Notes: generated by a model from the letters alone, not told the origin. A stretch of DNA of 64,000 bases from Trypanosoma brucei (GCA_000002445.1 CM000208.1:352001-416000), one strand, 5' to 3'. Numbered from the stretch's first letter, positions 15,844-53,759 are shown. Made by a program: numbers and translations.

Positions 15844-16503
<660 letters not shown>

Positions 16504-16665: not shown

Positions 16666-16708
16666 AACAAAGACAGAGGGAAAAAAAAATAAGAGGAGGG
16701 TGGAGGGA
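16666..16708 (-). promoter_or_regulatory. Polypyrimidine tract (on the transcribed minus strand) upstream of HGPRT copy A; putative trans-splicing and polyadenylation signal
   Basis: The + strand reads aaacaaagacagagggaaaaaaaaataagaggagggtggagggagaggaacg, which is polyY on the coding strand about 200 nt upstream of the ATG. It lies at the edge of the duplicated segment. Confidence 0.5.
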
Positions 16709-16870
16709 GAGGAACGTAACCATCTGGAGGCAAACGATCTTCCAAGCAAACAGCGAGCAAGGAAGTTACTGCCATATTTTCCAGTCCCTTCTCTGAGTCT
16801 GCCTAATCACGTGGGATGTTAATACAACACGATAATTTGTAAGCTATTAAGAATATGGAATTCGTTAACA

Positions 16871-23584: not shown

Positions 23585-25002
23585 GGAGTTTATTCGCTAG
23601 CTATATCCACCTCTAGTGCACTCGTACGGCACACGCATACACACACAAAGGCAATCGCGTTTCTTTGGCTTATTTTGCTTCGCTACCCCTCCACTCTGAA
23701 AAAAAAAATATTCCACCTTCCTTGCGACACAGCTTCCTGTATCTCCAAGTGCTTTCCCTTTTCCACTGCTACAGCCACTTACACCTGATCTGTGAAAAAG
23801 AGAAAAAAAAACTACAACACTAATCCAGAGCCCCGTGGCGCAACAAGTCCGTGCGGTTAGAAGAAAATAAAGAAATGGGTGAAGGGAAAAGTCAATAACT
23901 CTTGAACACCTTTGGAGTCCGAATTGCGCAACAAACATTAACCGGGTTTCTATCCTTCCCCCCCCCCCCCCCTCAATGCATATAGCGGGGGGAGTTCGGA
24001 GTCTCCTTAAACAAGCAAAGTAACTGAATGCCACTGAAATTATCCATAATAGGGGCAAATGTTCATATATGAGAGAAGCAATTAAAAAAGGCACAATAGA
24101 AAGCGCAATAAACGAGAAGACACGTTGCCGCAAGAACACCCCGCTGACACGAAACCAAACGGCAACTATACATCCAACCAGTGTGAAACCACACCAGATC
24201 AGATATATATGTCTACAGATACACAACAACACAAGTTGGGTACAAGTCCTTCAATTTCTCTCTGCCGTTGTGAAAGGTCAGTCCGCATATTTCATTATAA
24301 CAGCAACGTCGGTCGCGTCGTCACGTGGAAGGGATGGTCCGTGTGGTAGAAAGTAGGAAACCATGACCCGCAACCGCGGGAAAGGAAGTGCAGAAAACAA
24401 CCCATAATAACAACGTCTGCCACCGCTTGCTTATGAAAATGGAACCCACGGTAATAATAATAATAATAATAATATTGAATTTCGACCGTCTCAACCATGT
24501 TTCTTCTACATATAAACCACAAGGACACTCAACAGCAAATGGCAACACGCGCATCGCAACAAACCACCGTTTCATTACCACATAAGTAAAGGCAATAGGA
24601 GCTGTACACAGTAGTACCACGTCAAGTAGCAGCAACAGCAAAAAAAAAAAGCAGTAGGACCCTAACGGACAGAACGAGGGTGCGGGTTGCACTCCGGTCC
24701 AAAGGAGGAGTGCGTCATTTTTATCCTGAATTCAAAAATGGTACAAAAGACGGAGTGAATCATGGCCCGATTCTCACAACGCCTTTGCTAACTGGTAACA
24801 TGCTCAGCGACTTTTTCGCACTCCTTCACAATACTACGAGGATTTCAGGATTTAAAAAAATTGATGCTCCCTGCACCTCAGGCTTCCCTACTGGTCGTGC
24901 CATCACAACCCGTCCCGCACCACTTTGCAATACGCTCGAGTGCTCTTCACTAAAACGAGATTATTCTGTTGCGAGAAGCTTCTATTGAAAAATAAACATT
25001 GA

Positions 25003-33621: not shown

Positions 33622-34875
33622 CCCTCGCTGTGACGACCACGCGGATGGGTAAGCGAATGTAATCTTGTTTCTTAAAACGCAAAAGAAAAAAATCTCTAGG
33701 TACACTCGTACAGCGTTACAATTGTGATAAAGACAAGAGTCTGCTCAGGATATGGAAAAAGGAAATGAAGTTCCTCAGGCACCTATGTCCCCACAACCTT
33801 ATCAAACTAGTGGAAAATTCCCTCTGCCGGTGTGTTTTTTTTCCTCCCCCCTTTTATTTTTCTTGCACTCACTCCGCTTTGTCTGTATTATTCCCCTTTC
33901 TTCCTTCCCTCCCCTCCGCCCCGTTGTGCGACCAACAACGTACACGGGTGGTGGAAACGGAATTGTAAACTGGGAGAAAACCGTCCCCCCCCCAAAAAAA
34001 AGGAGAAAAAAACAAGAAAAAAACTTTGCTGCCGTGACTTCTGCCCACCACGGTAATTTGAGATATCACCCTCTGAAGAAAAAAAAAACAAAAAAGAGGG
34101 AAGAGGAAAGTAGAGAAATGCAGGGTGCAAAAAGAAACTTATTCCACACATCCGTCTCAGTGCAGTAGGGAGATTGGGAGCACAACATACCATGGAATTA
34201 TTGTAAACAAAATAATACATACAGTCGTTTCACCAAGTCACAACTGTAAGAAGGAAGAACGAAAAAAAAAAAAAGAGCAATTAGAAGTAAAAGCAATATG
34301 GTAATATATTTTGCGGAAAGTGGATCAGAAAACTAGGAGGTGAAGATACTGAAAATAAGTCAACAAAAACCACACTTCTCAGCACCAACTGTTGGTGTTG
34401 TATTCCGTAGCAACCACTATACGCAATGACCCCACGCTTGCGGTTGAGAAAATGAGGCCCTAAAGTGGAAAGCGTACTCCAACGAGAGGGTTGATGCTGA
34501 ACAACTAAGATATGAGAAGGAAGAAACTTCATTGGAAGAAGTCAGAATTAGAAACGTCCCGTTGCTCACATCACATAGGCCAGTCTACTTGATTTTATTT
34601 GCATTCCCTTTCCTTTGGATTTTTTTTTTCGCTGTTGTGAAATTCTCTACACACGAAAGGGATGTCTTGTTTCCAAACTGCGAGCTAAGTATTGCACGAA
34701 CCAGGGTCATCTGCCAAGCTCTGACATCCGAGCTTGACGACAGTCCGAACGAGACAGTATCCTGAGGAGCCGTTTTCATCCAATTCCCTACACTGCGGCC
34801 AATTGGAGCCGCGCCAAGTGGACTCCACGAATAACAAGGGAGGAAAACAGCAACAGAGAGTAGTAACAATGTTCT

Positions 34876-37416
34876 CTACACTCTGACGAATAGGTTTCGG
34901 TAGAGCCCCTCCACTTTGTGCAATAAAGCCTGGACGGTGCGCCTGTCCTCCTCGTGAGTGAGTGGAACGAGAGGTACGTTAAGCACTTGCACAGAGCCAC
35001 CCATAGTGGCATCAGCGATGATGGACCGGGTGGTCACCGTCGGTGAGTAAACTACCACCTGCTGCAACAGCAGACGCAAAATGGCCATTGCGTCCTCCCA
35101 TAGTTTCTTTCCCTGTAACTTCTTTGGCTCCAGTTCAGCTTCTAACACCCCCCTCTGTTTTTCGCGTTTGTCATCCGGGGTCAGCAAAAGCTGTTCAGAA
35201 GCCGCCCAGCGGATGAGATCAACAGCGTGCCGGAGCATCAACTCCTTCGCGGAAGGTAAGCAATCAAGCGAAGTACCTCGCGTCATTAACGTGAAGGAGT
35301 GCTGTGTAACTCCCTCCTCGTTGTCCGCCGCTGAACTTGCTGTTGTTTGAGTACCTTGGTTACTCTGAAGGCTCTGTTTGAGCTGAGACGCGGCTGTTTG
35401 AATGTACCCTTCTACCTGCTTGAGGTCATCCAAGGAGTCATGAAAGAGAGACGATGAGGCACTCATGTTTGGACCGTTCGTGGCGTTGGCAGCTCCTCCC
35501 GTATCCCCGGCAACATTGCTGCACTCCGAAAATACGGTATTTACTGCCGCACTAAGAAGATCCCACCCGTAGGATAGCAGAACAAGGCCTCGGCCTGGGT
35601 CACGCTCCCTCTCTACAATGTTATATTGCAGAATATGAATATACTCACGAAGCGCCAAGATAGTTTGCCTCTTCTCCAAAGTCGTTAAAACATTTCTACC
35701 GCCTTCACAATTCTCAACCGGGAGAACTGAATTATCCACTGCGCTGGGGTACTCAGCCAGCGCTTGTCCCGCAAGTGTCACCCCGCTTGCAGACCCCAGA
35801 GCATCAGCAAGTACGGACCTCGGTGATCCTCCTCTCACTAATACAGGTGCACTTCGAGGCTCTTCATGAGTAAACCACACGTGGTTCTTCACATCGATGA
35901 TTGTGCAGCGCTTTTTCGCCTCGGAATGCAGCATCTGCCGAAGCAATTCGTAGCAGCTGGGCGAAAGGCGCCTTCGATTCACGTATCCTCCCTCCTGTTG
36001 CGACAGCTCCCCACCCGCACCGTCTGTCGTAGAAGTTGATGCAGAGGGCGCACGATTTGTCATATCCAACTGCTCTGCACGCGCAATAGCACCAAGCAGA
36101 GCATCCGCCGAGCAGACGGTCGCTTTGGGGTAGATATAAGGGTGTCTAGCGAACAGTAATTCGTACATGATAACCCCCAGTGCCCATACCTCCGCTTGAT
36201 AGTCATAAGAATCGAAATTCAAGCGCTCCGGAGCCATGTAAGCCATAGTGCCAACAGCAGATTCAAACATTTCTTCGCCCTCCGTGGCCTCCAAAGCGGA
36301 GCCCTTTCGACTGTTAACCTTCGCCATACCCCAGTCGGCTACTTTCACTACCGCCTCATCGATATTACAGGATGTTAGAAGAATATTGGCTGGCTTTAAA
36401 TCACGGTGCATCACACCTCGTTCCCTAAGGAAACACAAGCAGTCAACCAGCTGCCGCATAATACGTCGGGCTTGCGCCTCCGATAGTGGGTCGTGCTTGG
36501 CCAAGTACTCTTTTAGGTCTCCCCCCTCGCAGAGCTCCAGAACGAGCACGTAGCTTGGTTCATTTTTGTCATCTATAGTTTCGTAAGTACCGTAAGCTTT
36601 GACGACGTTCGGATGACCCGGGCACCCAAGCAGGTCCATTATACTGATCTCGTCGGGTGTTTCATCCCTCTTTTTCGCTGGCGCCTTAATAATCTTCATG
36701 GCAACATGATACCCCTCTTTTATGTGCTTCCCACGGTATACTTCTCCAAACTGCCCTTTTCCAAGGCTTTCATCCATGTACATTTCATAGTCACCAACAA
36801 CACATGTGTTGCCCTCGCGTACAGGGGTACTAGGTCTCCATTTGCTATCAAAGTAATCACCTTCTACATTTCCCTGCATTATACGTGTGGCATCCACTGT
36901 CGGGTGTCGACGCAGCTCGATATCATCCCTCTCCACGTCGCTGGCCCGTCCTTTCCCTAGCACGCTTTGAGTGAAGAATTCCACTATACCATCACCCCCC
37001 AACCACTTCAGAAGAGCCATGGAGTACGCCCACTCACCTTCGATAACACTAAAATAGTCCACAACCCTAATAATATTGGGAAAATTTATGGCCAACACGC
37101 CCACTTCTTTTTGCACATACCTGCTCAACTCGTCCTTCTTGTTCGCAGGCCTCTTTAACACAGATACCACAACGTCGCAGTCGTCTTCCACATGTTTTCC
37201 ACGGAAAATAAGACCAATGCTCACGCTCCCGGCGACATTACTCCAGTCCACCTGGCTACAATGGCTTAGAAGCCCAGAAAGTTCCGCCATCCTCTGGACA
37301 TTCCTATAGTCATCGATACCAAAGCAATCAACATAGCCCTTAAGAATCTCTTCGGCACGGTCCTCAACTCGTTCGGGGCAACACCACGCCTTTCCACAGC
37401 TACAGCAAGATCTCAT
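34876..37416 (-). CDS. Protein kinase (Ser/Thr type) with a Cys-rich N-terminus and a DWG variant of the DFG motif
   Basis: 846-aa ORF with an ATG start. Central kinase domain: KGQFGEVYRG, VAMKIIK, HRDLKPANILL, VKVADWGMAKV, GTMAYMAPERL, DYQAEVWALGVIMYELL. The N-terminus is MRSCCSCGKAWCC. Confidence 0.8.
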   Translation of the reverse strand: MRSCCSCGKAWCCPERVEDRAEEILKGYVDCFGIDDYRNVQRMAELSGLLSHCSQVDWSNVAGSVSIGLIFRGKHVEDDCDVVVSVLKRPANKKDELSRYVQKEVGVLAINFPNIIRVVDYFSVIEGEWAYSMALLKWLGGDGIVEFFTQSVLGKGRASDVERDDIELRRHPTVDATRIMQGNVEGDYFDSKWRPSTPVREGNTCVVGDYEMYMDESLGKGQFGEVYRGKHIKEGYHVAMKIIKAPAKKRDETPDEISIMDLLGCPGHPNVVKAYGTYETIDDKNEPSYVLVLELCEGGDLKEYLAKHDPLSEAQARRIMRQLVDCLCFLRERGVMHRDLKPANILLTSCNIDEAVVKVADWGMAKVNSRKGSALEATEGEEMFESAVGTMAYMAPERLNFDSYDYQAEVWALGVIMYELLFARHPYIYPKATVCSADALLGAIARAEQLDMTNRAPSASTSTTDGAGGELSQQEGGYVNRRRLSPSCYELLRQMLHSEAKKRCTIIDVKNHVWFTHEEPRSAPVLVRGGSPRSVLADALGSASGVTLAGQALAEYPSAVDNSVLPVENCEGGRNVLTTLEKRQTILALREYIHILQYNIVERERDPGRGLVLLSYGWDLLSAAVNTVFSECSNVAGDTGGAANATNGPNMSASSSLFHDSLDDLKQVEGYIQTAASQLKQSLQSNQGTQTTASSAADNEEGVTQHSFTLMTRGTSLDCLPSAKELMLRHAVDLIRWAASEQLLLTPDDKREKQRGVLEAELEPKKLQGKKLWEDAMAILRLLLQQVVVYSPTVTTRSIIADATMGGSVQVLNVPLVPLTHEEDRRTVQALLHKVEGLYRNLFVRV

Positions 37417-38266
37417 ACCATCAAGTAACTTACCCTCTCCGTCACTTTATACCTAGAAGGAAACTTTTAAAAATATGAACTCACTCTTTACTGCTGTTTC
37501 TTTTCCGACCTCCCCCCCCCCTCCTATGACTGCCTTTGTGTACCAACTTTTACAAGAACAAAGAAAAAAAAAGAGCGCACAATTTCCTATACATCACCGA
37601 CATATACATCTGACCTCATCGTAACTACGGCGATCAGCACATATATACCACTTAACATCCAAACACCGTGCCGAACCCTAGTCCATTTCCACACACGATG
37701 GTGGTATATTGCCTCGGAGAGATGCAAACGGAGCTTGAAGTAGGAATTATATGCACCGCTGGAATTAGTCTCACCCACTCGTAAGCATCCTCATGACTCA
37801 TCCATCCTCAACTCCTCAAGTGAGGCACAACACCACCGACCAGGACTCACAGGGCAAAAAAGCAAGTGATTGACAAGCAACTGTTACCAGTACACCACCA
37901 TCAACCACCGAGGTCGGCACACATTACAAGAACAACGGTAATGTTATCCATCGCTTCGTTCATCGCTACGCTCCATGTGTTACACGGGAAAGAACTCTCC
38001 TCTCTTCTCATACCGGTTTCTTTATTAGCTATTCTTCGCATCCTTTTCCCATTCATTCATCCCTTGTGCTCACATATCTTCCCCAAGTATGATCATTGTG
38101 AAACAAGCGTAGGGGAAATAACAAAACAAGCACAAGGCACAAGAACTACCTGCTTACACAGGTAACATTAAATAGGGAGGAAGCATGGGAAAGTACAAAT
38201 TTACGTACGGGTAATTGCACCACAGAACCCCGTTGCCTCCCACCATCAGCACATCAGCGACCGCAT

Positions 38267-38926
<660 letters not shown>

Positions 38927-39087
38927 TCACGCGAGCTTTATGATATCTCTTGTGAAACCTTGTTACCGCAGAAGGAAAAGAAGATGCTAACATTGCACGA
39001 TAATTGGGTTAGGTTCAAGGTAGTGGACTACCAGGCACTGCATGATACCTGTGGGGACGGCCGCATTCACGTCAATATTGCCAGATT

Positions 39088-39137
39088 AAACAGAGACAGA
39101 GGGGAAAAAAATAAGAGGAGGGTGGAGGGAGAGGAAC
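39088..39137 (-). promoter_or_regulatory. Polypyrimidine tract (transcribed strand) upstream of HGPRT copy B; putative trans-splicing signal
   Basis: The + strand reads aaacagagacagaggggaaaaaaataagaggagggtggagggagaggaacg, a duplicate of the copy A tract. Confidence 0.5.
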
Positions 39138-39699
39138 GTAAGCACCGTGTCCCGTCTCTTGGGGGGTAGAGACGTCAGTAACCAAATGTAGTTGTCGCTT
39201 TTATAGATGAAATGACCTTAAATGAGACCGGCGTACCATATGAGCCTAATGACGGGACGCTTTGGAAATACATCGCCGTGGTGTTAAGTCGCATTTTAGA
39301 AAAATCAGTCGACGCACATCAACCAGGGGCACCAAAGTGACCTGAAGGAGAGATAAAGGAAAGAAAGAAGAAGGGTATGTGTAGTATACAACTCATTTTC
39401 ATGTACACCTCATATGTTGCTTAGCTGTTGCTGGATGAGCATCACCACATGACACTCTACTCACACATGCATGCAGAAACACGCACACACACACACACAA
39501 ACATATATATGTATGTATACGTGTACATGTAGCTGAAAGTCCGTACATTTTTTCATGCGGGTGTATGTGTGCCTGTTATTTTTCTTTGGTTCACATTGGA
39601 CGCTGACAGAAACTGCGTCAGATAACAACTAAGATAAATATCGTCAAAAGGTGCAGAAAAAAATAAGGTTAAATGTGTGCACTGAGGATGACATGAGGA

Positions 39700-41838
39700 G
39701 ACAACAGAAGAAGTACTACCAACAGCAAGCAGCATACAATGCGTTATAACCGAAAACGGAAGAAAGGAAGGATGAAAGAAAGAAAGAAAGAAAGAGAGAA
39801 AATAAAGGACGGGGGAAGCGATGGTGGGAGGGGAGCAAATGTTCCTCGGCAGCAAAGGAGGGTAAAGGCCGACCAATGGAGGAAAAACAAAACAAAAAAA
39901 TTGGTGAGGCCTCACGGGGGGGGGGGGTTGAGAATTGAGAGGGATGGAAGAAAAGAAGAACACGTTCATACAAGACAAACACAAATACACGTGAAGCATC
40001 ACAAACACGAATTACGTGCAATCAACCTGCAGCGGAGAGGCAATAAAATAAAAAAAAAGAATGGCGGAGTGGAAAGGAGGAAACCAGCAGTTGAGCCCTT
40101 TCACACACACATAAAAAAAACTTAGCAGTGCACAACATGGCGGACCCGAACAGCTGCTACACAGTGATTGAGAAGGAAAATAAATAAATAAAAGAGTGGA
40201 AAGAAAGGGACGAAAATGAGAGGAGAGGAGAGGAGACGCATTTCCACATGTGGCGACCCGTTTTTCCAACCCCCACGTCATGAACTTTATATATTTTTCT
40301 TCCTTTTGTTTTTCTTCTTCCCCTTCCCTTTTCTTTTGTTTTTTTTTTGTTTTAAAGCCAGATTCATCCTCCCCTTTTTTTGTCCTTAAACAAAATAAAA
40401 ACTCGGCCATTGACGACCGGCTATTTGCTTGCCCTCTCCCTAACCCTGCACCTCTACCGTTTCTCTTCATGAGCTGCAAAACAAACATTCGCACGCCTTC
40501 TCCCAAAATACAATTACAAACACAAATACGCACAACAACTCATAAGCACAAACAACTTAACCACAGAAGACACAAAACAAAACAAAACATCCTGCCTTTA
40601 TTATTATTATTATTCCCCTCCATTTTTTTTTTTTGGGGGGGGGGGGGTTCACCGCCAACAAATAACTTTCTTCATTTCGCCATTTATCACATCATCACAT
40701 ATCTCAGCGCCCTCTACTGCATGGGTTTCAGTCACCCTTATTTTTATTTTGTTCCGCTTTGCATAACTTTTTTTTTGCTATTTAAAATTAACTAACTTCA
40801 TTTTTTTTCTTTTTTGCCGTTTGTCTCTTGTTTCACCTTATTTTAATCTTTTTTTTCTTGATTTTTTTCACACACGATTCCTTTTTTTTTTTCCGTTTCT
40901 TTTAATCTGCATGTGGATATACGCCCGTACGTACGCAACAGTTTCATCAAAAGGATATATATATATATATGTTTCTTTTTTTTTTCATTGGTTTTGTTTT
41001 GTTACTTGACAATTTCATTTCATTTTATTTCATTTCACTTTTCTTTTTTTTTCTTTTCTCCCCTTTCCCCTTTCCGTGCTATTCGCTATTTTCCTCCTTC
41101 CCTTTTCTCTCGCTCCCTCACCCCTTTTCCTCGCTACAACTTACAAACACAAACACAAACACACTCACACTCGCATGCGTGTACACACTTTTTCTTTTCT
41201 TTTCTTTTCTTTTCTTCTCTTTTCTCTTTTTTGATTTGTTTTGTTTTTTCTTTTAATTATCCGCGAGTGTTCGGGTCGTTGTTTTTGTTTGTTTGTTTGT
41301 TTCTTTTATTTCTTTTTTTTTTTGGGGGGGAGGGGGAGGTGTCTCTTTTCATATGGTCGCGATACTCATCGATTTTTTGTTTTGTTTTCTGTTTTTACAT
41401 CGGTGCATCTTCCGCCTCATTCTTTTCCTTTTCTTTTTTATCTTTTTTAAAAAACAAAAAACCTTTCAAGTCGTCCCTTTTCCTTCACCCGCACCTCCAA
41501 ACTCGTGTGTGTGTGGGGGGGGGGCTTTTTTTTTTTTCCTCCCTCCTGTTTTGTTCTGCCAACGGTACTTTTGTATTATTTTTTTTCTTCTTCTTTCTTC
41601 TTCGCTCCGATTTTTCTTTTTTTTTTTTTTGTTGTTTCAATTCATTTGCTCTTTTTTTTTTGAACTTTTCCTCTTGAGGAGGATATGGGGAGAAGAAAAG
41701 GAGTAGGAGGAGGGTTTTTTTTTTCATTCATTCATTCATTCATATCCACCCCCTTCCCTTCTCATTTCCTCCCTTACCGTTTATATGGTTGTTGCCTTTC
41801 TTTCTTTTCTTGTTTTGTTTTGTTGTTGTTTCATTTTT

Positions 41839-41884
<46 letters not shown>

Positions 41885-44230
41885 CATTTCAAGTAAAGAA
41901 TAAAAAAAGAAAAAAGAAAAAGAAAAGCCAACAGGATGGCCCTCCTCACAGCTGCATGTCACATTTATTTATTTTAACTCCTTCGTTGTTGTTTTGTTTT
42001 TGTTTTTGTTTTTGTTTTTGTTTTTTTTTTCCTCCTTCTCCCCCCACCTTTTGTTCTTTTTTTTTCGATTCTTCGGGGTCTTACGGCACTTTACCTGCTT
42101 CCATTCATCCATTTGAAAAAAAAAAAGAGGACGTGACGGGGACGGGGTGTGGGGGAGTAAAAACGAAAACAGCAGGCGCGGGTTCTTCCTTTTGTTATTA
42201 TTATTTTTTCTTTTTTTGTTCCTTTTGTTCCTTAAACATTAATATCATTTTATATAAAAACAAAACAAAACAAAAAACAAAAAAATTGCTCTCTCTCTCT
42301 CTCTCCCCGCCATTTTTGTTCCGTTTCATTCCGTTCTTGTGTATGTTATATCATATCATATCACTCAAGTTTTGTTTTTTCTTTTGTTTTTTTCTTTTTT
42401 TTCATTTTATTTTGTTTTTTGGTTTGCTTTGCCTCCCTCTCCCTCCTTCCCCACACCGCCGCGTATTTCCCCTCTTATTTCCTCTTCTCTTCACATGATT
42501 AATTTAAGTGCTATAAATAACCCTAATGGTAACAGTAACCGTCATAATAATAACAATAATAATAATGATGATGATGAAGATGATTGTGGCGGTGGTAGAA
42601 GCAGTAGTGTAAGTGAGCAGAAGGACGAATATAAATAAATAAATAAATATACAAATATATTCGCTCAAAAATACCCATACAAAACGGAAACACAGACACG
42701 AACGCGAACGCACGGACTCTTTCATATTTTGTTTTGTTATATATATATATATATATATATAATATTTTGTTTATGTATCTTTTTTTTTCTTCTGTGGTTG
42801 CCTCTCCTTCCTTTGGAGTTTTGGCCCAACACATACCCGCTATTGCCTTTTTTTTTCCCTTCTTCTTCTTCACTGGTTTTCGGTTGTTGTTTATTCTTTA
42901 TTTATATATTTTTTTCTTTTTTTTTGTGTGTGTTTTTTTTTTGCTTCCTTTTCCCTTTACCTTTACCTTTGCCATTGTCATTCTTTCTTTTTCTCTTTTG
43001 TTGTTGTTTTTGCTAATATTTTCACTCTCTCTTTCTCTCTTTTTCTTTTTCTTTTCCTGAAAACACAAGCACAAACTTTCATTTGTTTCTTTTTTCTTGT
43101 TTTTTTTCCTTTTGCCTCTTTTGTTTTTCCCCCCTATTATTTTCCCCCCTTTTTTCTTTTCGTTTTTTTACTTTTTTTTGTTTTACTTTCCGTTCACTCT
43201 GCAATAACGGGACTTCTTATTTTTTTAAAAAAAATTTTTTCCATCATCTCGCAATTCCCCTCCCCCTTATCTTTCCTTTTCCCTTATCTTTCCTTTTTAT
43301 TTCTTTTTTTTCCTTTTCCTTTTCCTTTTTCTGTTGTTGTTGTTGTTTGTTTGAAAAATATGATAATTCCGTCCCTTCCGTTCCATTTCAATTAAACTTG
43401 TATGTAGAGGGAATCGCACAATGAAAAAGAAATAAGAAGAGAAAATAATAAAAAAGGAGAAAATAATAAAAAAAGTAAAAAAGTAAAAGCAAAAAAGCAA
43501 AAAAGAAAGAAAAGGGGAAGTTGGGAGAAGGGGGAAAGAAAAAAAAAAGAAAAGAAAAGAATGCACAAATCCCGGAATGCAATGTCCCACATCACACAAA
43601 TAAACGTCTAGCATCACATCACACAATTCCCCGCCACTTTGCAGCCACCATTCCTTCACACGTGCTTTTATAAATATAAATATATATTTCCCCCTCCTTT
43701 TTTTTAAAAAAAAAAGTAAGTCTCATTTCTTGTTTGTCTTTGTTTTTGTTTCATCTTTCATTTTTTTTTGTTCTTGTTGTTGTTGCTGCTGCTGTTCCAT
43801 TCCTATTCTTCTTCCCCCATGGCGAAGAGAAGGAGGAGGGAGAGAAAGGAGGAAGTAAAGGAGATAAAGCGACGGTTCATTTCTTACGCATAATAATAGT
43901 AATAATAATAATAACAGTAATAATGATTGTAATAATTACTCTTTCTTATCTGCTCATTGACCGATAACATCTCCACTCTCCAGTTCCTTTTTTCTCCTCT
44001 TCCTCTTTCTTTGTTTTCTCACTCTTTCTCTTCCTCTTTTCTTTTTTTTTTTGCTTCTTCGTCGATTTCCCCCTCCACACACACACATACTTCTTCAAAA
44101 GAAGATGGGGGAAAAACAAAGAAACAGAAATCGAAAGTAAAAAGAAAAAAAGAGAATGAGAGAGTAGGGAAAGGAAAAGGAAAAAAAAAATAGTAACAAT
44201 AGTAACAGTAATAACAGTAGTAACGACAAC
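39700..44230. repeat. Low-complexity, microsatellite-rich, strand-asymmetric inter-CDS block of about 4.5 kb
   Basis: The + strand is strongly T/C-rich across 40250-43400, with short purine-rich islands (39740-40130, 43400-43560, 44100-44230). Embedded simple repeats include (GAAA)n near 39771, G12 at 39916-39927, T11G13 at 40624-40647, (TA)n near 40955, (CATT)n near 41720, (TA)20 at 41843-41882, (TGTTTT)n near 41995, (CT)n near 42290 and (TA)n near 42740. No credible ORF on either strand. Confidence 0.8.
41843..41882. repeat. (TA)20 dinucleotide microsatellite
   Basis: Read directly from the sequence. Confidence 0.9.
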
Positions 44231-44324
44231 GGTGACAACTGTTATTATCATTATTATCATTATACTTCCATGTTCATTTTATTTGGTATCAGTGTACGGT
44301 GCAGCCATGGGGGACGCGTCTTTA

Positions 44325-47300
44325 CTAGTGAGGAATCGGTTCTTGGTGTCGTGGTGGATATAAATTGTGGATATCACCTGGGGGATTGTCATCAATGTGA
44401 TCGCGCCACTTTTGCCACATCATTTCGATTGTGTCCTCAACAATAGTGCCAGTAAGTTGGTCCTTTGCGACAATTGTTTCCTTATCATTCAACATGTAGG
44501 CGTTAATTAGGTACAGTGCTTGAAGTGTGAAGGACATAACCAAATGAAGGTGGTCGGCAAGATCAGGAATGTCGCGGAATTTCCCTTGCAAGTACTCTAT
44601 TCGCTCCTCCCGCGAGGTGAGGTTAGCTTGGTAGTCCGATGGGAAAACGAGTACGTAGTGAAGAAGTAACCCACCGATGGTGGATGGAACATCCCCAAAC
44701 GGTAATATGGAGGCGAATTCAGCAAAATCTTGCAAACTGCAGCTGCTGTTTCCAGAAAGGAACACAGTGGAGGTGATAACCTCTACAAGCTCGCGAAGGC
44801 AGCGGCACATAGCACGAACCATTACAGTGAAGGCACATAAGTGTCGACTGTAGACAGGAGCCCATACAAAGGGCAAGTTCTCACTCGCACGGCGATACGG
44901 CAGCTTGACGAGACAAGCAATACGTGAGGCCAGTAACACACGCGAGTCACTATTGGTATCCTGGTCATCCATACTAATTTCTACCTGCTGATTGGCAGGA
45001 TTGATGTAGCGACAGGGATTGCTATTGATAATTCGAACGCGGACCAACTCCGTCAGGAGAACAAAAGATGCCTGAACGTCAAGTGGGTTTGCCTTGATGG
45101 TTGCCCTCAGGTATATGGGAAAGTACACAGATGGGTAGTCCTTTAATCCCTCATCCGCCATGAAATTGATGTCGCTTGCTTCACTTCTCTTCATGCTGCT
45201 GAGATCCTTTTCGTGGTAGGCGGCCGGGACGGAACCACCCCGGTCGTGGCCATCCATCCCGCAGCACTCCATTTCCATCCCATCCACCGCGTCGTTAGGA
45301 GCAGTGGAGTGCGAAAAGTAACCGAGGAAATCAAATGACTTAAGAAGAATAGCTAAAAAGGTCTCCCTCTTGCTGTTGTAGCGGATGGGCACCCGACCTG
45401 CAGGACGGTTGCTCTCTTCCACCGCTGGTCTCGATGCATCAGCTGTGACACTAAGCACTGAGGCAATGCTATAATCTGCTAAACAGTCTTCGTCCAATTT
45501 CTTCAGCTGATCACTATCTGAGATTTCCCACTCGTCTAAGTCGATGAGGTCGCGGGGTCGATCCATCGGAGCCAATATCGGTTGAAACCATCGAACCCAC
45601 GAAAGGCACTCGGTCCGTTTGATTGGGGGCGGGTGCGCAATCCTCTTCAGTATCTGTCCAATGACTTGACTGCGCATCGTCATGAGGAGCCCTAATGTGG
45701 TGTGATAGTCCTTAGTGTCTGAAACGGGGCATTCATCACGGAGGTACGACTGTGTTATAGCCGTCATTATACGCACAGACAGCAGTCCAGAGAACTGCAT
45801 GTAAAATAGTGACAGCGGCACAAGATGACCCAACACCCCGGCGAGATTTGTAGGCATGTCGGCGTTCGTCAAGTCAGGATCGAGTACGCGAACTAAGTAT
45901 ACCAACGGTGTGTCCCGTGATTTCGTGGAGAATACCGCACTGTAACGAAGGTATCCACGCCCTTTGGAATGCTTAATGGAGAGACCGGCCTTCTTGCCCG
46001 TTTCCTGTGAGCATGCATGGGCATTGATAAAGTCCTTAATGGAGCGAAATTTCGGTGTGGGCGTGGATAGTTCCTCATAAACCTCCTGCATTGAAAGATT
46101 AAGGGTCACGCGCGCGGACGACAGTGCAGCGTGCGTTGCCGTAATGAGGCCAAGGTCCATCAACCTATCCCCCGCAACTCTAGTATTCGTTTCGGTGACG
46201 TGATTCGGGAAGAGTGCACGAAGAACCCTATCCCTGTCTAGATAATTTACGCTGCTATTAGACACGTCAATCTGCACAATGACTTTCATTTCGTCATACG
46301 GAAGCAACAACATCTCTGGCGGCCCCATTAATAAATCCGCAATTCCCTCCTTGTGGAATGCAACCATCTGCGCCCAGTTGAGGAACGGGGCCGTAACCGC
46401 CATTACGCCCAGTTCCTCCTTCAAGTAGCGTGCAACCGCCATTTGCACGTCCTCGCCTAGGGGCTGATCAAACGCTTCTTGAATTTCCACTTCATCCGGT
46501 ATTTCACCATCCTCCAGCTTACTCCAGACGGCGTCGCGAGCACGCAGCTCCGCCTCAGTCGTTAGAAATGTCTCCACATCACCACTCACGCTAAGACCGT
46601 TGAAGACCCAAATGGGTTCCAGTTTCATGTTTCGCATCCACTCCACGTGCTGCTGCACTAACATGAGTAATTCCTCGGGGAGTGTAGAGTGAAGAAACCA
46701 CAAGGAGTCTCTCTTCCTGAGCTCATCACGAAGACTCGTAAGGCAGAAGTTACCGTCCACAGCCACTTTCAGCGCGGGGTCGTCCTTTCCATATCCCTCT
46801 GGAAAGAACTTTGAGATATTGTCCACCGACACAAGGCCCCGATCATGTAGAAAATCGTAAAGCGCCTCCGTGGAGCCGCTCATATTCGCATCGTCCCCCG
46901 GAAATGTGTCACCCATGCTTGGGGTCGTAGGGATCATAGCGTGCGGACTGGGCGACACGCCTGGTAGAGGCATAAAGTTGCCCACTTGGGGGGGTAAACC
47001 TTGGCCCATCATGGGCGACTGATTCATGCGGTTGGGAGGCATCATCCCAGGATCAGGTGTACCTATGCGCGGTGGACGTGATGCGTTTGATGCAGGCATT
47101 TGGGGACCCATCCCCCTTGCCCGCATTTCCAAGTAACCAGCATTGCCACCACCACCACCGCCACCACCAATACCAGCCGGGGGCCTCGACGCGTTCATCG
47201 GACCTCCAGGGCCAACACCTGCACCAGGCAAAACGCCACCGTACGGCGGGCCCGCCGGCATCGGTGGTGGCGGTGGTGGTCCCACAGGTGCACCCGCACC

Positions 47301-47987
47301 GTAACCTACCTGCGCTGGAGGGCTTACGCGCGTATCCGGGTACCCGTCATGACGCATCATTGGTGCACCGTACATTCCGCTGGGTTGCATATGTTCCATG
47401 AGAGGTTGTCCTCCACGACCAAATCCCATTGGCGTGTGCGCCCCTTGATGGGGAAGTGCACCGTACCCACCGGGAAGGGGTGCACCGGCAGGAAGCCCGT
47501 TGTGCATCGCTGGGTTACGCCCGTAAGGAATATTTGCTCCACCTCCCATATGGGAAGGGGAGGAAGGATACTGGCCACCGTGCACATCTCGGTACATTCC
47601 ACCCATATCTCCGTAACCACCACCGGTGCCCGGGCTCATTTGATTGTAGCCCTGATTATACATGGGCGTCTGCTGCGGAGGACTATTCCACGGACTGCCA
47701 GAGACACCCTGCCCAAAACTATGTGGTGGCATTTGCGGCTGACGGATGTTGTCGTAAGCATTACCGTAAACGCCATTGTGATGGGGGTGATGATGGTGAT
47801 GTTGGTGCGGATGCTGGTGAGGATGTTGGTGCTGGTGCTGATGTTGATGCTGATGCTGATGATGGTGCTGATGCTGATGATGGTGCGGATACATCATAGA
47901 GGGGCCTGGGGGTGACATTTGTGGCCCCTGCTGTCCCAGGTTTCGGCCCTGTCGTTCATTATTGCGATTTGCTCCAGCTTTCCTCAT
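44325..47987 (-). CDS. MKT1L: MKT1-like protein (MKT1L-type): N-terminal Gln/His/Pro/Gly/Met-rich low-complexity extension plus an MKT1/XPG-like N domain and an MKT1 C-terminal region (start moved to the first ATG; the track start at 48011 is a GTG)
   Basis: The first ATG (MRKAGANRNN) is at 47987-47985. Residues after the roughly 380-aa low-complexity region read EALYDFLHDRGLVSVDNISKFF...KVAVDGNFCL, which resembles the yeast Mkt1 N-terminus (LESFLFERGLV...). A HQHQHQHQHPHQHHHHH tract is encoded by imperfect CAC/CAG repeats. Confidence 0.7.
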   Translation of the reverse strand: MRKAGANRNNERQGRNLGQQGPQMSPPGPSMMYPHHHQHQHHHQHQHQHQHQHQHPHQHPHQHHHHHPHHNGVYGNAYDNIRQPQMPPHSFGQGVSGSPWNSPPQQTPMYNQGYNQMSPGTGGGYGDMGGMYRDVHGGQYPSSPSHMGGGANIPYGRNPAMHNGLPAGAPLPGGYGALPHQGAHTPMGFGRGGQPLMEHMQPSGMYGAPMMRHDGYPDTRVSPPAQVGYGAGAPVGPPPPPPMPAGPPYGGVLPGAGVGPGGPMNASRPPAGIGGGGGGGGNAGYLEMRARGMGPQMPASNASRPPRIGTPDPGMMPPNRMNQSPMMGQGLPPQVGNFMPLPGVSPSPHAMIPTTPSMGDTFPGDDANMSGSTEALYDFLHDRGLVSVDNISKFFPEGYGKDDPALKVAVDGNFCLTSLRDELRKRDSLWFLHSTLPEELLMLVQQHVEWMRNMKLEPIWVFNGLSVSGDVETFLTTEAELRARDAVWSKLEDGEIPDEVEIQEAFDQPLGEDVQMAVARYLKEELGVMAVTAPFLNWAQMVAFHKEGIADLLMGPPEMLLLPYDEMKVIVQIDVSNSSVNYLDRDRVLRALFPNHVTETNTRVAGDRLMDLGLITATHAALSSARVTLNLSMQEVYEELSTPTPKFRSIKDFINAHACSQETGKKAGLSIKHSKGRGYLRYSAVFSTKSRDTPLVYLVRVLDPDLTNADMPTNLAGVLGHLVPLSLFYMQFSGLLSVRIMTAITQSYLRDECPVSDTKDYHTTLGLLMTMRSQVIGQILKRIAHPPPIKRTECLSWVRWFQPILAPMDRPRDLIDLDEWEISDSDQLKKLDEDCLADYSIASVLSVTADASRPAVEESNRPAGRVPIRYNSKRETFLAILLKSFDFLGYFSHSTAPNDAVDGMEMECCGMDGHDRGGSVPAAYHEKDLSSMKRSEASDINFMADEGLKDYPSVYFPIYLRATIKANPLDVQASFVLLTELVRVRIINSNPCRYINPANQQVEISMDDQDTNSDSRVLLASRIACLVKLPYRRASENLPFVWAPVYSRHLCAFTVMVRAMCRCLRELVEVITSTVFLSGNSSCSLQDFAEFASILPFGDVPSTIGGLLLHYVLVFPSDYQANLTSREERIEYLQGKFRDIPDLADHLHLVMSFTLQALYLINAYMLNDKETIVAKDQLTGTIVEDTIEMMWQKWRDHIDDNPPGDIHNLYPPRHQEPIPH
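47795..47895. repeat. Imperfect in-frame CAC/CAG (His/Gln) codon repeat within the MKT1-like CDS
   Basis: The + strand reads gatg/ctgatg-type repeats gtgatgatggtgatgttggtgcggatgctggtgaggatgttggtgctggtgctgatgttgatgctgatgctgatgatggtgctgatgctgatga. Confidence 0.8.
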
Positions 47988-51376: not shown

Positions 51377-53759
51377 CCCGTGAAATGCAGAGCCTGATTG
51401 GTGCTTCAGACGACAACCTATCTTTGGGCTTATTTTATCTTTCTTTCTCTTCTTTTTAAAGGGTTGTTCCTGTTTTGTTCGCCTTCCTTATTGTAAACGA
51501 AGTGATAGATAGGTACTCCTAAGCTCACTTTGTTATTCTTTCCTTTTAGAATATGTTTTTTTTGTGTGTGTGGTTTCACTGTTGTTTATGTTTCTAGCGT
51601 TACTTATCGTTCCCCCTTCCCTTTGAAGTTGTCAGTGGCGGTGCTTTGGCTCAACTGATAGCGTCTTTTTTTTTTTTTTTAAAGGCTACTGCTGTCAGAT
51701 CTCCTTTCAGCAGTTATTCCTCCCTTTATTCCTTGTTGTCCTTTTTTGTAAATGTATATCTCGCCTACTGTCTTGATCGTCACGAACTATACGCCTTACT
51801 GATTTCCTCCTTCAGTGCCTATTTATTTGTTTGAAAAATCCCTTGCGTCACAGTGGACATCACCGCAACATGACGAAATAGTGAGACACAAAAAAATAGA
51901 GAGAAAAAGTAAAGAGTTAAAGGGAGGAAATATGCATGTGTATTGTTTTACTTGTTTTTGCACTATCTTAACAGGTAAAGTTAGCATTACTACGACGCAT
52001 CCGTACAGCATGCGCGTTACATCACATGTCCATCCAATTTACTTCGCTACTTTTGCCTTGTCGCAGCTGCTGATGAAATTTTCCTGTCCGCTGAAAGCAT
52101 ATGTATGGTTTGTAAAGAAGATGTAGAAAGAAAGAAAGGAAAAGAAAAAAGGAAGGTGAGATATTAGTAAACAAATACGCACAAATACAAACATATATGC
52201 GCATATAAATAAATAAATACATATATACAGGAGGGAAAGTAGTTATCTCGCATTGATTGATTGATTGATTGATCGACTTATTTATTTTGTTTGCTTGATT
52301 AGGTCTGACGCACGTACTCTCTTTCTCTCTCTCTCTGATGCACGCTCTGGGGGGGGGGGGAAACAAAAACAATAATATAAAAGAGGCATGCAGCGAAACG
52401 ACGCTTTCAGTCAGACATTCATTCACTTAAAAAAAGAAAAGGAGGAAAGGGATAAATGGATGGATGGATGAGAAGGAGAAGGAGAAGGGAAAAAAGCAAA
52501 GTAAAGTAAAGGAGATAAAGGGGAAAAGAAAAAAAAGAATTGAATGAATTGAAGTGACGGAAATGAACTAAAGGTGTGAAGAAATTTTTATTTTTTATTT
52601 TAAAAAAGATGAGTAGAAGGGGGAAACAGAGGAATAAAAAATTTTTTAAGAAACAAGGAAGGGGATTAATTAATTACTTTTTTTTTTCTTTCATACCTTT
52701 TTCACCTTCATCTTCACCCTTCTTTTTTTTTCCTTTTCCCCACCACCACCACCACCACCACTCCCTTCATAATTTATTCTTCACCAACAGCACTCACAAT
52801 TTGCGCAACGAAACACATCTCGTTGGGAGGAACAATACACAAGTACAAGCACACACAAATACAAGGAAATATGAATACCGGTAATAATCATAAAATTAGA
52901 ATGAAAGTGAAAATTAAAAAAAAACACCAGAATGAAACCCGTAATTATCACAAGCGATGATGACCGCTTTTTTTTTTTCCTTCTCCTATTTCTTTATTTA
53001 CTTTTTGTTTGATCATAAGGCAAGGGCTAAACAACTTATTCCCACCAATGTTATTCGCATCATCGCCTCACCGTCCTTCTGTTTTAGCATTTATTTACTG
53101 TCATTTGCATTTCCATCTCTCTCATTTTATTTTTCCTTTTCTCCCTTCCATCTGCACCCTTCTCGTATTATTTTTCTTTTTTGTTTCCTCCCCTCCCCTC
53201 CCTTTAATACATAAAATTGCTGCATACCTTCTTTTCTCAAAAAAACAAAAACAAACAACAATTTTCGCTGCTGTTATTCATATCCTCACTTATTAATATT
53301 ACTGTTGCCGTTACTGATATCACCCATCCTCTCCTCGTTTTACTCTTTCTTTCTTTTTCAAGCTTCTGTAGTTACTCGTTTTGGTATTCACTATTTTCAG
53401 AAAAAGGAAACAAAAAAAAAACTAACCATCACATCACATCACATTCCCCACCTTCTCGCATAAATAATTAATAAAAATGGAAAGAAGAATGGAAAAGAAA
53501 AAAATTGAGACAAACAGATACGGTGAAGGGGAGTGGTTGACCGCACAAACATAAACGCACACACAAACACACACGTAACAACACACAAAAATTACATATG
53601 AAAGGGCGAATGAGGGTCTTAATTTTATTTTTAAAAAAAATTAATATTAAAAAACGCTGAAAGGTGAAAAATACCAGCAACAACAAGGCAAACTAAAGAA
53701 AAAAGAAGCGTAAAGAAAAAAAAATGAAGTGAAGTGAAAACAATTCAAACCTGTGTTAC

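What the first reader, a model, noticed from the sequence alone, without database searches (positions are those of the whole stretch)
39200..44324. 5-kb strand-asymmetric, microsatellite-dense non-coding block between the MKT1-like gene and HGPRT copy B
The gap between CDSs is about 5.4 kb, against about 0.5-1.5 kb elsewhere in the window. Across roughly 3 kb the + strand is almost pure T/C, so any minus-strand transcript would be A/G-rich. This is broken by purine-rich islands at 39740-40130, 43400-43560 and 44100-44230, which are polyY tracts on the transcribed strand and therefore candidate extra splice-acceptor or polyadenylation sites. The block may be an exceptionally long, structured 3' UTR of the MKT1-like gene, may host an unannotated non-coding transcript, or may be a region prone to replication or assembly problems (G12-14 and T11 runs, (TA)20).
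Basis: partly seen in the sequence, partly recalled or inferred. Interest (0 to 1): 0.6.

Follow-up and report, generated by a model that had tools for sequence, protein, structure and literature searches.

The report
Conserved long non-coding spacer after MKT1L
The 5.4-kb repeat-rich gap is a real, non-coding stretch of a Trypanosoma brucei-group gene array that has stayed unusually long downstream of the MKT1L gene across trypanosomatids; it is most likely a long regulatory tail (3' UTR) of the MKT1L message, a known kind of feature in these parasites.

Summary
The gap between coding sequences is 5,425 nt (38900-44324), against 394-2,383 nt for the window's 16 other sizeable gaps. 16% of it is perfect microsatellite, against 3.9% in other intergenic DNA. 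Its 3.1-kb core (40250-43399) is 68% T/C on the + strand, so strongly biased but not "almost pure". All listed runs and purine islands exist.

No protein, Rfam RNA or conserved ORF lies in the gap. The key result is comparative. The order NOT1, MetRS, MKT1L, long gap, protein kinase is ancestral. The gap after MKT1L is 6.3 kb in T. cruzi, 4.8 kb in T. melophagium, 5.6 kb in L. infantum and 4.0 kb in Leptomonas, always the largest in the locus. In five Trypanosoma species it is purine-rich on the sense strand. No alignable sequence is shared. HGPRT copy B is a 1.45-kb cassette inserted in the T. brucei lineage.

I read the block as a long MKT1L 3' UTR, rich in AAGAA, polypurine and poly(AU). 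It ends at a polypyrimidine cluster (39752-40236) and carries internal polypyrimidine tracts that allow alternative processing. The rival is one or more independent non-coding RNAs. Published read counts for the annotated ORF Tb927.10.1480, inside this gap, hint at that. Short-read assemblies break in the block. This is a new member of a known kind.

The parts
44325..47987 (-). MKT1L coding sequence (Tb927.10.1490 orthologue), the upstream gene whose 3' UTR the block most likely is
   Evidence: Pfam MKT1_N and MKT1_C. The ATG-start product is identical to a T. equiperdum OVI protein. MKT1L = Tb927.10.1490 according to the bioRxiv paper 10.1101/2020.03.02.973057.
43980..44200 (-). Imperfect hairpin of about 90 bp, 125-345 nt after the stop codon. 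The first polypyrimidine tract (44097-44190, AG at 44093) pairs with the polypurine run that follows it.
   Evidence: RNA fold dG = -78.2 kcal/mol, z = -5.0, 0 of 200 shuffles as good. Sub-threshold miRNA-like Rfam hits fall at the same place.
43423..43561 (-). Strongest internal polypyrimidine tracts (39 + 98 nt), first AG at 43397. A further tract lies at 43824-43869 (AG at 43811).
   Evidence: Tract scan on the minus strand. + strand purine fraction about 0.8.
40250..43399 (-). Purine-rich, microsatellite-dense core. The sense RNA would be 46% A and 22% G, with dense AAGAA, poly(A)-like and (UA)n runs and only weaker internal polypyrimidine tracts.
   Evidence: AAGAA: 53 observed in the core against 31 +/- 5 expected from base composition.
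41842..41881 (.). (TA)20 microsatellite, replaced by an N-gap in the T. equiperdum assembly
41515..41537 (.). G10 followed by T12. The T. equiperdum OVI contig switches to unrelated sequence at this point.
39752..40236 (-). Cluster of five polypyrimidine tracts with AGs at 40157, 40027, 39911, 39845 and 39716. I propose it as the main processing hub that sets the distal poly(A) site of the upstream RNA. AAGAA is nearly absent here.
   Evidence: An equivalent cluster lies 0.7-1.8 kb upstream of the kinase ATG in T. cruzi and T. melophagium.
39142..39751 (-). Segment of ordinary complexity between the cluster and the HGPRT-B cassette, with one more tract plus AG (39344-39375, AG at 39342). It is a candidate remnant of the ancestral kinase 5' region, a possible short orphan RNA, or a long HGPRT-B 5' UTR.
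   Evidence: This is inference. With the cassette removed, the cluster sits 848 nt from the kinase ATG, similar to the other species.
37690..39141 (-). HGPRT copy B cassette: its own polypyrimidine tract (39092-39136), AG at 39049, CDS 38267-38899 and 3' flank. It duplicates 15267-16719.
   Evidence: 98.8% identity over 1,454 nt with sharp boundaries. No gene is called between MKT1L and the kinase in T. cruzi, T. melophagium or L. infantum; L. pyrrhocoris has only an unannotated 100-aa call there.
34876..37416 (-). Protein kinase, the ancestral downstream neighbour of the spacer
   Evidence: Pfam Pkinase. 40% identical over about 700 aa to the gene after the T. melophagium spacer.

Best explanation
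The block is the ancestral non-coding spacer between MKT1L and a protein kinase, inside a minus-strand polycistronic unit of a T. brucei-group chromosome 10.

Most of it, from the stop codon at 44325 down to about 40250-40400 (roughly 4 kb), is most likely the long, low-complexity 3' UTR of MKT1L mRNA. Its distal poly(A) site would be set, as is usual in trypanosomes, by trans-splicing at the polypyrimidine cluster at 39752-40236.

The sense strand is purine-rich because a 3' UTR that grows by microsatellite slippage survives only if it does not create polypyrimidine tracts plus AG on the transcribed strand.

The strong internal tracts that do exist (44097-44190, 43824-43869, 43423-43561) are potential alternative processing sites. 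They may be kept partly silent by a local hairpin and by proteins that bind polypyrimidine or AAGAA/polypurine sequence (DRBD18-type masking, hnRNP F/H repression). When such a site is used, the result would be a shorter MKT1L mRNA plus a trans-spliced, polyadenylated RNA derived from the 3' UTR. That would account for the abundant, stage-regulated reads credited to the spurious ORF Tb927.10.1480.

Shown: the anatomy, the lack of coding capacity, the conservation of length and composition, and the HGPRT-B insertion. Inferred: the transcript boundaries, the factors involved and the stage regulation.
For: Lack of coding or known RNA genes:
- No Pfam domain in six gap ORFs.
- No relative of nine concatenated gap ORFs among 5.8 billion proteins.
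- No ORF shared between the spacers of five species.
- No Rfam family at gathering score.

Conserved long spacer:
- NOT1, MetRS, MKT1L, spacer, kinase is syntenic across species.
- Spacer length is 6,303 nt in T. cruzi, 4,823 nt in T. melophagium, 5,554 nt in L. infantum, 3,970 nt in L. pyrrhocoris and 2,520 nt in Phytomonas, where the gene after the spacer has no kinase domain.
- It is always 1.6-3.6 times the largest neighbouring gap.

Conserved composition:
- Sense-strand purine fraction is 0.55-0.63 in T. brucei, T. cruzi, T. melophagium, T. vivax and T. rangeli.
- In the three Trypanosoma spacers that are complete, a terminal pyrimidine-rich stretch of 0.6-1 kb follows.
- There is no collinear sequence similarity, so length and composition are what is retained.

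Processing signals:
- 18 sense-strand polypyrimidine tracts lie in the gap, and the duplicated HGPRT cassette carries its own tract and AG.
- AAGAA occurs at 12/kb on the sense strand, against 0-5.7/kb in other gaps. It is concentrated around the internal candidate splice sites (1-8 each) but not at the terminal cluster (0-1).
- The first tract sits in a hairpin with z = -5.

Literature:
- T. brucei has 3' UTRs up to 8.5 kb with internal polypyrimidine tracts masked by DRBD18. Loss of DRBD18 gives shorter mRNAs plus trans-spliced 3'-UTR-derived RNAs (PMC9380746).
- ZC3H28 binds long mRNAs whose 3' UTRs are enriched in poly(AU) and polypurine tracts (PMC10090614).
- hnRNP F/H binds AAGAA, is high in bloodstream forms and represses trans-splicing (PMC3711420).
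- Tb927.10.1480 reads are 28-fold higher in a list made up largely of bloodstream-form genes such as ISG65, ESAGs and VSGs. I inferred that direction from the list's contents, because the table header was not read (PMC10048164).
Against: - No RNA data were available, so continuity from the MKT1L CDS to about 40300 is not shown.
- Three internal polypyrimidine tracts are as strong as, or stronger than, those in front of real genes. The first lies only about 130 nt after the stop codon, so MKT1L could have a very short 3' UTR.
- In procyclic EIF4E3 pull-downs, Tb927.10.1480 is enriched 20-fold (RPKM 1,666), yet MKT1L is absent from the list of RNAs enriched 2-fold or more. That is hard to reconcile with both lying on one molecule in that stage.
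- Purine richness is absent in Leishmania, Leptomonas and Phytomonas.
- SSR density is not special to this spacer in T. cruzi or T. melophagium.
- The exact position of Tb927.10.1480 within the gap could not be determined.
- Its read counts may be inflated by mis-mapping of low-complexity or A-rich reads (one search shows clear artefacts at the top of the same table).
Confidence: 0.5

Rival explanations
1. MKT1L has a short 3' UTR, processed at the first polypyrimidine tracts (44097-44190 or 43423-43561). The rest of the block is then one or more independent, spliced-leader-capped, polyadenylated long non-coding RNAs. Examples would be a purine-rich RNA of about 3 kb from AG 43397 to about 40300, or an RNA of about 0.5-0.9 kb from the 39752-40236 cluster to about 39250. 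The reads credited to Tb927.10.1480 would belong to such an RNA.
For: - Strong polypyrimidine tracts plus AG at several internal sites.
- Tb927.10.1480 is 20-fold enriched with the cap-binding protein EIF4E3 while MKT1L is not listed.
- It is 28-fold differential in nanopore data, while MKT1L and HGPRT are absent from that supplement's tables.
- T. brucei is reported to have many intergenic lncRNAs, for example grumpy (PMC9200285, listed).
- The spacer's position is conserved.
Against: - Nothing in the sequence distinguishes an independent lncRNA from a fragment derived from a 3' UTR.
- Nanopore direct RNA reads are generally 3'-biased (my own knowledge, not checked here). A long MKT1L 3' UTR would therefore also put reads on Tb927.10.1480 rather than on the CDS.
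- No conserved sequence or structure exists between species.
- T. melophagium has only one internal tract scoring 20 or more in 3.4 kb, which looks like a single UTR.
Confidence: 0.3
2. The block is functionally neutral DNA that grew by microsatellite slippage. Its chief significance is at the DNA level: polypurine/polypyrimidine tracts, G-runs and (TA)n that hinder replication, sequencing and assembly. Its length in this assembly may also be inexact.
For: - 16% SSR and 3.5 long homopolymers per kb.
- The window and T. equiperdum differ at 11 repeat-associated indels and 4 substitutions in 2.8 kb of spacer, against 2 silent changes in the 3.7-kb CDS.
- Three short-read assemblies break inside the spacer.
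- The second longest gap in the window is also SSR-rich (11.7%).
Against: - A long spacer has persisted at this one position in six trypanosomatid lineages despite complete sequence turnover and compact genomes.
- The strand bias is consistent in five Trypanosoma species. Slippage alone does not predict this.
- Contiguous assemblies of three other species pass through spacers of 4.8-6.3 kb.
- The window is collinear with T. equiperdum over 2.8 kb, apart from small indels and the N-gap at the (TA)n.
Confidence: 0.12
3. The gap contains a real protein-coding gene, the annotated 'hypothetical protein' Tb927.10.1480.
For: The reference annotation lists it, and reads are assigned to it at RPKM values similar to ribosomal-protein mRNAs.
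Against: - All gap ORFs are low-complexity.
- The long + strand ORFs arise from T/C-rich sequence that lacks stop codons.
- There is no Pfam hit, no homologue among 5.8 billion proteins, no exact match and no conserved ORF in four other species.
Confidence: 0.03

Closest known systems
Very long T. brucei 3' UTRs with internal polypyrimidine tracts (RBP10, 8.5-kb 3' UTR; DRBD12, 8.4-kb mRNA), dependent on DRBD18 (PMC9380746)
   Same: A multi-kilobase spacer with no conserved ORF lies downstream of a gene for an RNA-regulatory protein. It carries several internal polypyrimidine tracts that could direct alternative trans-splicing and polyadenylation. Spurious ORFs can be annotated inside such a region, and it can yield 3'-UTR-derived spliced RNAs.
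   Different: Transcript continuity and DRBD18 dependence were not tested for this locus. This spacer is predominantly purine-rich on the sense strand. I show that it is positionally conserved across trypanosomatids and that a gene cassette was inserted at its distal end.
mRNAs bound by ZC3H28: long mRNAs whose 3' UTRs are low-complexity and enriched in poly(AU) and polypurine tracts (PMC10090614)
   Same: The sense strand has (UA)20, (UA)12, (UA)7 and abundant polypurine tracts. The predicted mRNA is long (about 8 kb).
   Different: Binding of this RNA by ZC3H28 is unknown; the paper's tables were not available.
AAGAA elements recognised by hnRNP F/H, which regulate trans-splicing and mRNA stability (PMC3711420)
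   Same: There are 65 AAGAA copies on the sense strand (12/kb), concentrated within -50 to +150 nt of the internal candidate splice sites. This is the window in which that paper locates functional motifs. The protein is more abundant in bloodstream forms, where Tb927.10.1480 reads appear to be higher.
   Different: The motif is short and is partly expected from base composition (53 observed against 31 expected in the core). No binding or knock-down data exist for this locus.
Intergenic lncRNAs of T. brucei (Guegan et al. 2022, PMC9200285; Kruse and Goringer 2023, PMC10048164)
   Same: Non-coding, lying between protein-coding genes on the transcribed strand, with candidate splice-acceptor and poly(A)-determining signals and stage-regulated reads.
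   Different: I could not establish that any catalogued lncRNA maps here, nor that a transcript independent of MKT1L mRNA exists.

Membership tests
Trypanosomatid long 3' UTR with internal polypyrimidine tracts (RBP10/DRBD12 type) | Non-coding sequence directly downstream of a CDS on the transcribed strand of a polycistronic unit, with no real gene in between | tested here: met
   All long ORFs in the window lie on the minus strand. No Pfam hit, homologue or conserved ORF was found in the gap. No Rfam family was found.
Trypanosomatid long 3' UTR with internal polypyrimidine tracts (RBP10/DRBD12 type) | A terminal polypyrimidine tract plus AG for the next trans-spliced RNA, which defines the distal poly(A) site | tested here: met
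   A cluster of five tracts lies at 39752-40236, each followed by an AG. The HGPRT-B tract at 39092-39136 has its AG at 39049. Only the sequence signals are shown, not their use.
Trypanosomatid long 3' UTR with internal polypyrimidine tracts (RBP10/DRBD12 type) | One continuous mature mRNA from the CDS to the distal poly(A) site | not testable with these tools
   No RNA-seq, spliced-leader, poly(A) or northern data were accessible.
Trypanosomatid long 3' UTR with internal polypyrimidine tracts (RBP10/DRBD12 type) | Internal polypyrimidine tracts present but normally unused (DRBD18-dependent masking) | tested here: inconclusive
   The tracts are present, and one is sequestered in a hairpin with z = -5. 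Whether they are used or masked is unknown.
Independent spliced-leader-capped, polyadenylated lncRNA | No coding potential | tested here: met
Independent spliced-leader-capped, polyadenylated lncRNA | Its own splice-acceptor and poly(A) sites, giving a molecule separate from the neighbouring mRNAs | tested here: inconclusive
   Candidate signals exist. The literature gives indirect hints: Tb927.10.1480 is enriched with EIF4E3 while MKT1L is not.
hnRNP F/H-regulated RNA (AAGAA motif) | AAGAA enriched around 3' splice sites or poly(A) sites | tested here: met
   12/kb against 0-5.7/kb in other gaps. There are 1-8 copies around the internal candidate sites, against 0-2 at gene-proximal sites.
hnRNP F/H-regulated RNA (AAGAA motif) | Binding by, and response to depletion of, hnRNP F/H | not testable with these tools
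   The paper's supplement is not held.
Known structured RNA genes (snoRNA, tRNA, other Rfam families) | A match at the family gathering score | tested here: not met
   There are 0 matches in the whole window. The gap has only sub-threshold, hairpin-like miRNA hits.
Protein-coding gene (Tb927.10.1480 'hypothetical protein') | An ORF with homologues, a domain or cross-species conservation | tested here: not met

The most novel reading that the evidence does not exclude
The spacer encodes an independent, spliced-leader-capped, purine-rich long non-coding RNA whose reads are currently credited to the spurious ORF Tb927.10.1480. It would be strongly up-regulated in bloodstream forms and bound to the EIF4E3 cap complex. 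Its position downstream of MKT1L would have been kept throughout Trypanosoma, and perhaps all trypanosomatids, despite complete sequence turnover. One possible role is as a platform or sponge for proteins that bind AAGAA, polypurine or poly(AU) sequence (hnRNP F/H, ZC3H28). That would tie it functionally to the MKT1L/PBP1 regulatory complex encoded next door.
Probability: 0.15. Interest if true: 0.6.

Novelty: new member of a known kind. Interest (0 to 1): 0.35.

Why it matters
Trypanosomes control gene expression almost entirely after transcription, and long 3' UTRs are where that control is exerted. MKT1L is an essential partner of the PBP1/LSM12/XAC1 complex, and its role is unknown.

An unusually long, compositionally constrained spacer has been kept downstream of MKT1L from Leishmania to T. 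brucei. This suggests that MKT1L expression is itself tightly regulated after transcription, or that the spacer gives rise to a conserved non-coding RNA.

In practice, the result flags Tb927.10.1480 as a probable non-gene whose read counts report UTR or lncRNA abundance. It also gives a clear test case for alternative polyadenylation and trans-splicing, and it marks a site where short-read assemblies fail.

Tried and rejected
- Rfam at E-value threshold on the gap and at gathering score on the whole window gave only sub-threshold miRNA-like hairpin hits.
- Pfam on six gap ORFs found nothing.
- An exact-sequence look-up of ten ATG-start gap ORFs, meant to locate Tb927.10.1480, found none in the collection.
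- A concatenation of nine gap ORFs searched against 5.8 billion proteins gave no hit.
- The ORFeome paper's supplement lacks Tb927.10.1480.
- Guessed old-style gene IDs (Tb10.70.64xx-65xx) appear in no paper.
- Supplements of the ZC3H28, DRBD18, Guegan lncRNA, polysome and hnRNP F/H papers are not held. The JBC MKT1L paper itself is not held.
- Two 'Tb927.10.1490' literature hits were really Tb927.10.14900.
- Exact look-ups of HGPRT-B, the GTG-start MKT1L ORF and the kinase found no contigs. The HGPRT-side 2.4 kb of the gap therefore could not be cross-checked in a second T. brucei-group assembly.
- BLASTN between the spacers of five species gave only non-collinear, low-complexity matches. T. 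rangeli against T. cruzi gave two weak, possibly collinear blocks near the stop codon that I did not trust.
- Two further polypyrimidine/polypurine junctions did not fold better than shuffled sequence.
- I considered an inverted fossil of opposite-strand intergenic DNA, because the + strand looks like typical sense-strand intergenic sequence. I rejected it because the same purine bias occurs in four other Trypanosoma species and no inverted duplicate exists in the window.
- I considered an internal transcription start region or a replication origin, but nothing available here could test either.

Full report
**Identity of the window.** Every long ORF lies on the minus strand, as expected for a trypanosomatid polycistronic unit.
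- ORF 44325-47987 carries MKT1_N and MKT1_C domains behind a His/Gln-rich N-terminus. It is identical to a protein of T. equiperdum OVI.
- MKT1L is Tb927.10.1490 in the literature.
- ORF 38267-38899 is a phosphoribosyltransferase. Tb927.10.1470 is annotated as HGPRT.
- The upstream genes are methionyl-tRNA synthetase and NOT1, and the downstream gene is a protein kinase.
- The window is therefore T. brucei-group chromosome 10. The finding concerns the gap between Tb927.10.1490 and Tb927.10.1470.

**Observation check.**
- The gap is 5,425 nt. The 16 other sizeable gaps measure 394-2,383 nt (median 1,039; z about 9).
- GC content falls to 0.36.
- From about 40300 to 43400 the + strand is 63-90% pyrimidine in most 100-nt bins. 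The core 40250-43399 is 68% (T 46%, C 22%). 'Almost pure T/C' is an overstatement, but the asymmetry is significant.
- 19 of 54 gap bins reach 70% Y or more, against 10 of 159 elsewhere (p = 8.6e-7).
- The sense-strand purine fraction of the proximal 60% of the gap is 0.62, against 0.47 +/- 0.035 in the other gaps.
- Perfect microsatellites cover 16.2% of the gap, 3.9% of other intergenic DNA and 0.2% of CDS.
- Homopolymers of 10 nt or more are twelve times denser than outside. G12, G13, G10, T10-T14 and (TA)20 are all present.
- The three purine islands are real, and there are several more.

**What the gap does not contain.**
- The gap ORFs are low-complexity. The long + strand ORFs arise simply because T/C-rich DNA lacks stop codons.
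- None has a Pfam domain, an exact match or any relative among 5.8 billion proteins.
- No ORF is shared between the equivalent spacers of five species.
- No Rfam family reaches its gathering score anywhere in the window. The gap gives only sub-threshold miRNA-like hits, which reflect pairing between polypyrimidine and polypurine runs.

**The spacer is ancestral.** Orthologues of MKT1L were found and their loci fetched. In each species the order is NOT1, MetRS, MKT1L, long gap, protein kinase.

| Species | Gap after the MKT1L stop |
|---|---|
| T. cruzi | 6,303 nt |
| T. melophagium | 4,823 nt |
| L. infantum | 5,554 nt |
| Leptomonas pyrrhocoris | 3,970 nt |
| Phytomonas | 2,520 nt (the next gene has no kinase domain) |
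| T. vivax | at least 2,524 nt (contig ends) |
| T. rangeli | at least 1,537 nt (contig ends) |

- The gap is 1.6-3.6 times the largest neighbouring gap in every species.
- The kinase is orthologous: 40% identity to T. melophagium over about 700 residues.
- In all five Trypanosoma species the sense strand of the spacer is purine-rich (0.55-0.63). In T. brucei, T. cruzi and T. melophagium, where the spacer is complete, 3.5-4.2 kb of purine-rich sequence is followed by a pyrimidine-rich stretch of 0.6-1 kb.
- The Leishmaniinae and Phytomonas keep the extra length but not the purine bias.
- No collinear sequence similarity exists between species. Length and composition are retained; sequence is not.

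**HGPRT copy B is a secondary insertion.**
- Window 37690-39141 duplicates 15267-16719 at 98.8% identity, with sharp ends.
- The unit is a complete processing cassette: polypyrimidine tract, AG, 5' UTR, CDS and 3' flank.
- Copy A sits next to another phosphoribosyltransferase gene, which I take to be the ancestral site.
- None of the other species has a called gene of recognisable function between MKT1L and the kinase.
- With the cassette removed, the polypyrimidine cluster at 39752-40236 lies 848 nt upstream of the kinase ATG. The comparable distances are about 840 nt in T. cruzi and about 700 nt in T. melophagium.

**Processing signals.**
- On the transcribed strand the gap holds 18 polypyrimidine tracts scoring 14 or more.
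- The strongest are 44133-44190 (58 nt), 43423-43520 (98 nt), 40170-40236 (67 nt) and 39752-39835 (84 nt). These equal or exceed the tracts in front of real genes.
- The first tract and its AG (44093), only about 130 nt past the stop codon, fold with the following polypurine run into an imperfect hairpin of about 90 bp (dG = -78 kcal/mol, z = -5.0). That could mask the site.
- Two other junctions are not significant.
- The sense strand carries 65 AAGAA motifs (12/kb, against 0-5.7/kb in other gaps; 53 observed against 31 expected in the core).
- The internal candidate splice sites between 44093 and 41312 each have 1-8 AAGAA within -50 to +150 nt. The terminal cluster has 0-1 and gene-proximal sites 0-2.

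**Literature framework.**
- T. brucei has 3' UTRs of up to 8.5 kb (RBP10) with internal polypyrimidine tracts. DRBD18 prevents their use. Its depletion gives shortened mRNAs plus trans-spliced, polyadenylated RNAs made only of 3'-UTR sequence (PMC9380746).
- ZC3H28 binds long mRNAs whose 3' UTRs are enriched in poly(AU) and polypurine tracts (PMC10090614).
- hnRNP F/H binds AAGAA, is most abundant in bloodstream forms, and acts on mRNA stability and as a trans-splicing repressor (PMC3711420).

**Reads credited to Tb927.10.1480.** The reference annotation numbers a 'hypothetical protein', Tb927.10.1480, between HGPRT and MKT1L, so it lies inside this gap.
- Its reads are 28-fold higher in a nanopore direct RNA-seq list made up largely of bloodstream-form genes such as ISG65, ESAGs and VSGs. 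I inferred that direction from the list's contents, because the table header was not read. MKT1L and HGPRT do not appear in that supplement (PMC10048164).
- It is the fourth most enriched RNA in procyclic EIF4E3 pull-downs (20-fold), while MKT1L is absent from the list of RNAs enriched 2-fold or more (PMC9585242).
- Three cautions apply. I could not place the ORF within the gap. Nanopore direct RNA reads are generally 3'-biased (my own knowledge, not checked here). The pull-down tables also contain obvious artefacts.

**Interpretation.** The most economical reading (confidence about 0.5) has four parts.
1. The block is the MKT1L 3' UTR, about 4 kb long. It ends just upstream of the polypyrimidine cluster at 39752-40236.
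2. Its purine bias is the footprint of selection against cryptic splice signals in a UTR that grows by slippage.
3. Its internal polypyrimidine tracts permit regulated alternative processing.
4. Whichever RNA then covers the annotated ORF would produce the reads credited to Tb927.10.1480.

The main rival (about 0.3) is that MKT1L is processed at the first tracts and the remainder is one or more independent non-coding RNAs. A purely neutral or DNA-level reading (about 0.12) explains the repeat dynamics and the assembly breaks, but not the positional conservation or the consistent strand bias. A real protein-coding gene is very unlikely (about 0.03).

**Assembly fragility.** The T. equiperdum OVI contig is collinear with the window (99.6%) from 57965 down to 41515. 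It has an N-gap at the (TA)n and continues with unrelated sequence exactly at the G-run at 41515. Within the shared 2.8 kb of spacer, the differences are 11 repeat-associated indels and 4 substitutions. The MKT1L CDS has 2 silent substitutions. The T. vivax contig ends in a T-run inside its spacer, and the T. rangeli contig also ends inside its spacer.

**Novelty.** This is a new member of a known kind, the long trypanosome 3' UTR or intergenic non-coding region with internal polypyrimidine tracts. The modestly new points are its deep positional conservation, its conserved purine bias, the insertion of the HGPRT-B cassette at its distal end, and the re-reading of Tb927.10.1480 as a probable non-gene.

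Noticed in passing
window 37690-39141 and 15267-16719: HGPRT is duplicated as a complete 1.45-kb processing cassette (polypyrimidine tract, AG, CDS, 3' flank) at 98.8% identity, with sharp boundaries and no obvious target-site duplication. The proteins differ at 4 of the 209 aligned residues. Copy B ends ...AAVKAKL, a PTS1-like AKL (my reading). Copy A's alignment ends ...AAGEAK, and its last residue was not read.
   Followed up: partly
window 27903-32165: Eighteen tandem copies of a 237-bp unit (99% identical) lie inside the 2,900-aa ORF 25003-33705. They encode a highly repetitive protein segment. The only Pfam hit for the ORF is to AMP-binding_C, with no single stretch passing on its own.
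   Followed up: no
L001 16400-19600 (T. equiperdum OVI CZPT02000170): After the C-run that corresponds to window 41515, the contig continues with about 3.2 kb of GC-richer sequence unrelated to the window. A thioredoxin/glutaredoxin-like gene follows. This is probably a chimeric join at a homopolymer in a short-read assembly, though a real rearrangement is not excluded.
   Followed up: partly
window 51377-53759: The second longest gap (NOT1 to MetRS, 2,383 nt) is also SSR-rich (11.7%) and contains a 111-nt polypyrimidine tract (52429-52539). The orthologous gap is also fairly long in T. cruzi (2,018 nt).
   Followed up: no
window 22937-23584 and 23597-24232: Two minus-strand ORFs of 215 and 211 aa are separated by only 12 nt, and neither has a Pfam hit. 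They may be a single gene split by a stop or frameshift, or a tandem pair.
   Followed up: no
window 47786-47890: A hexanucleotide and 18-nt repeat inside the MKT1L CDS encodes the His/Gln-rich N-terminal low-complexity region. The longest ORF starts at a GTG (48011), but the ATG at 47987 gives the product found in T. equiperdum.
   Followed up: partly
PMC9585242 supplementary file 7: In the pull-down RPKM tables, a few 'hypothetical' or repeat genes (for example Tb927.11.18710 and Tb11.v5.0632) have values up to 83,000. These look like mapping or contaminant artefacts. Read counts for low-complexity features such as Tb927.10.1480 therefore need re-checking.
   Followed up: no
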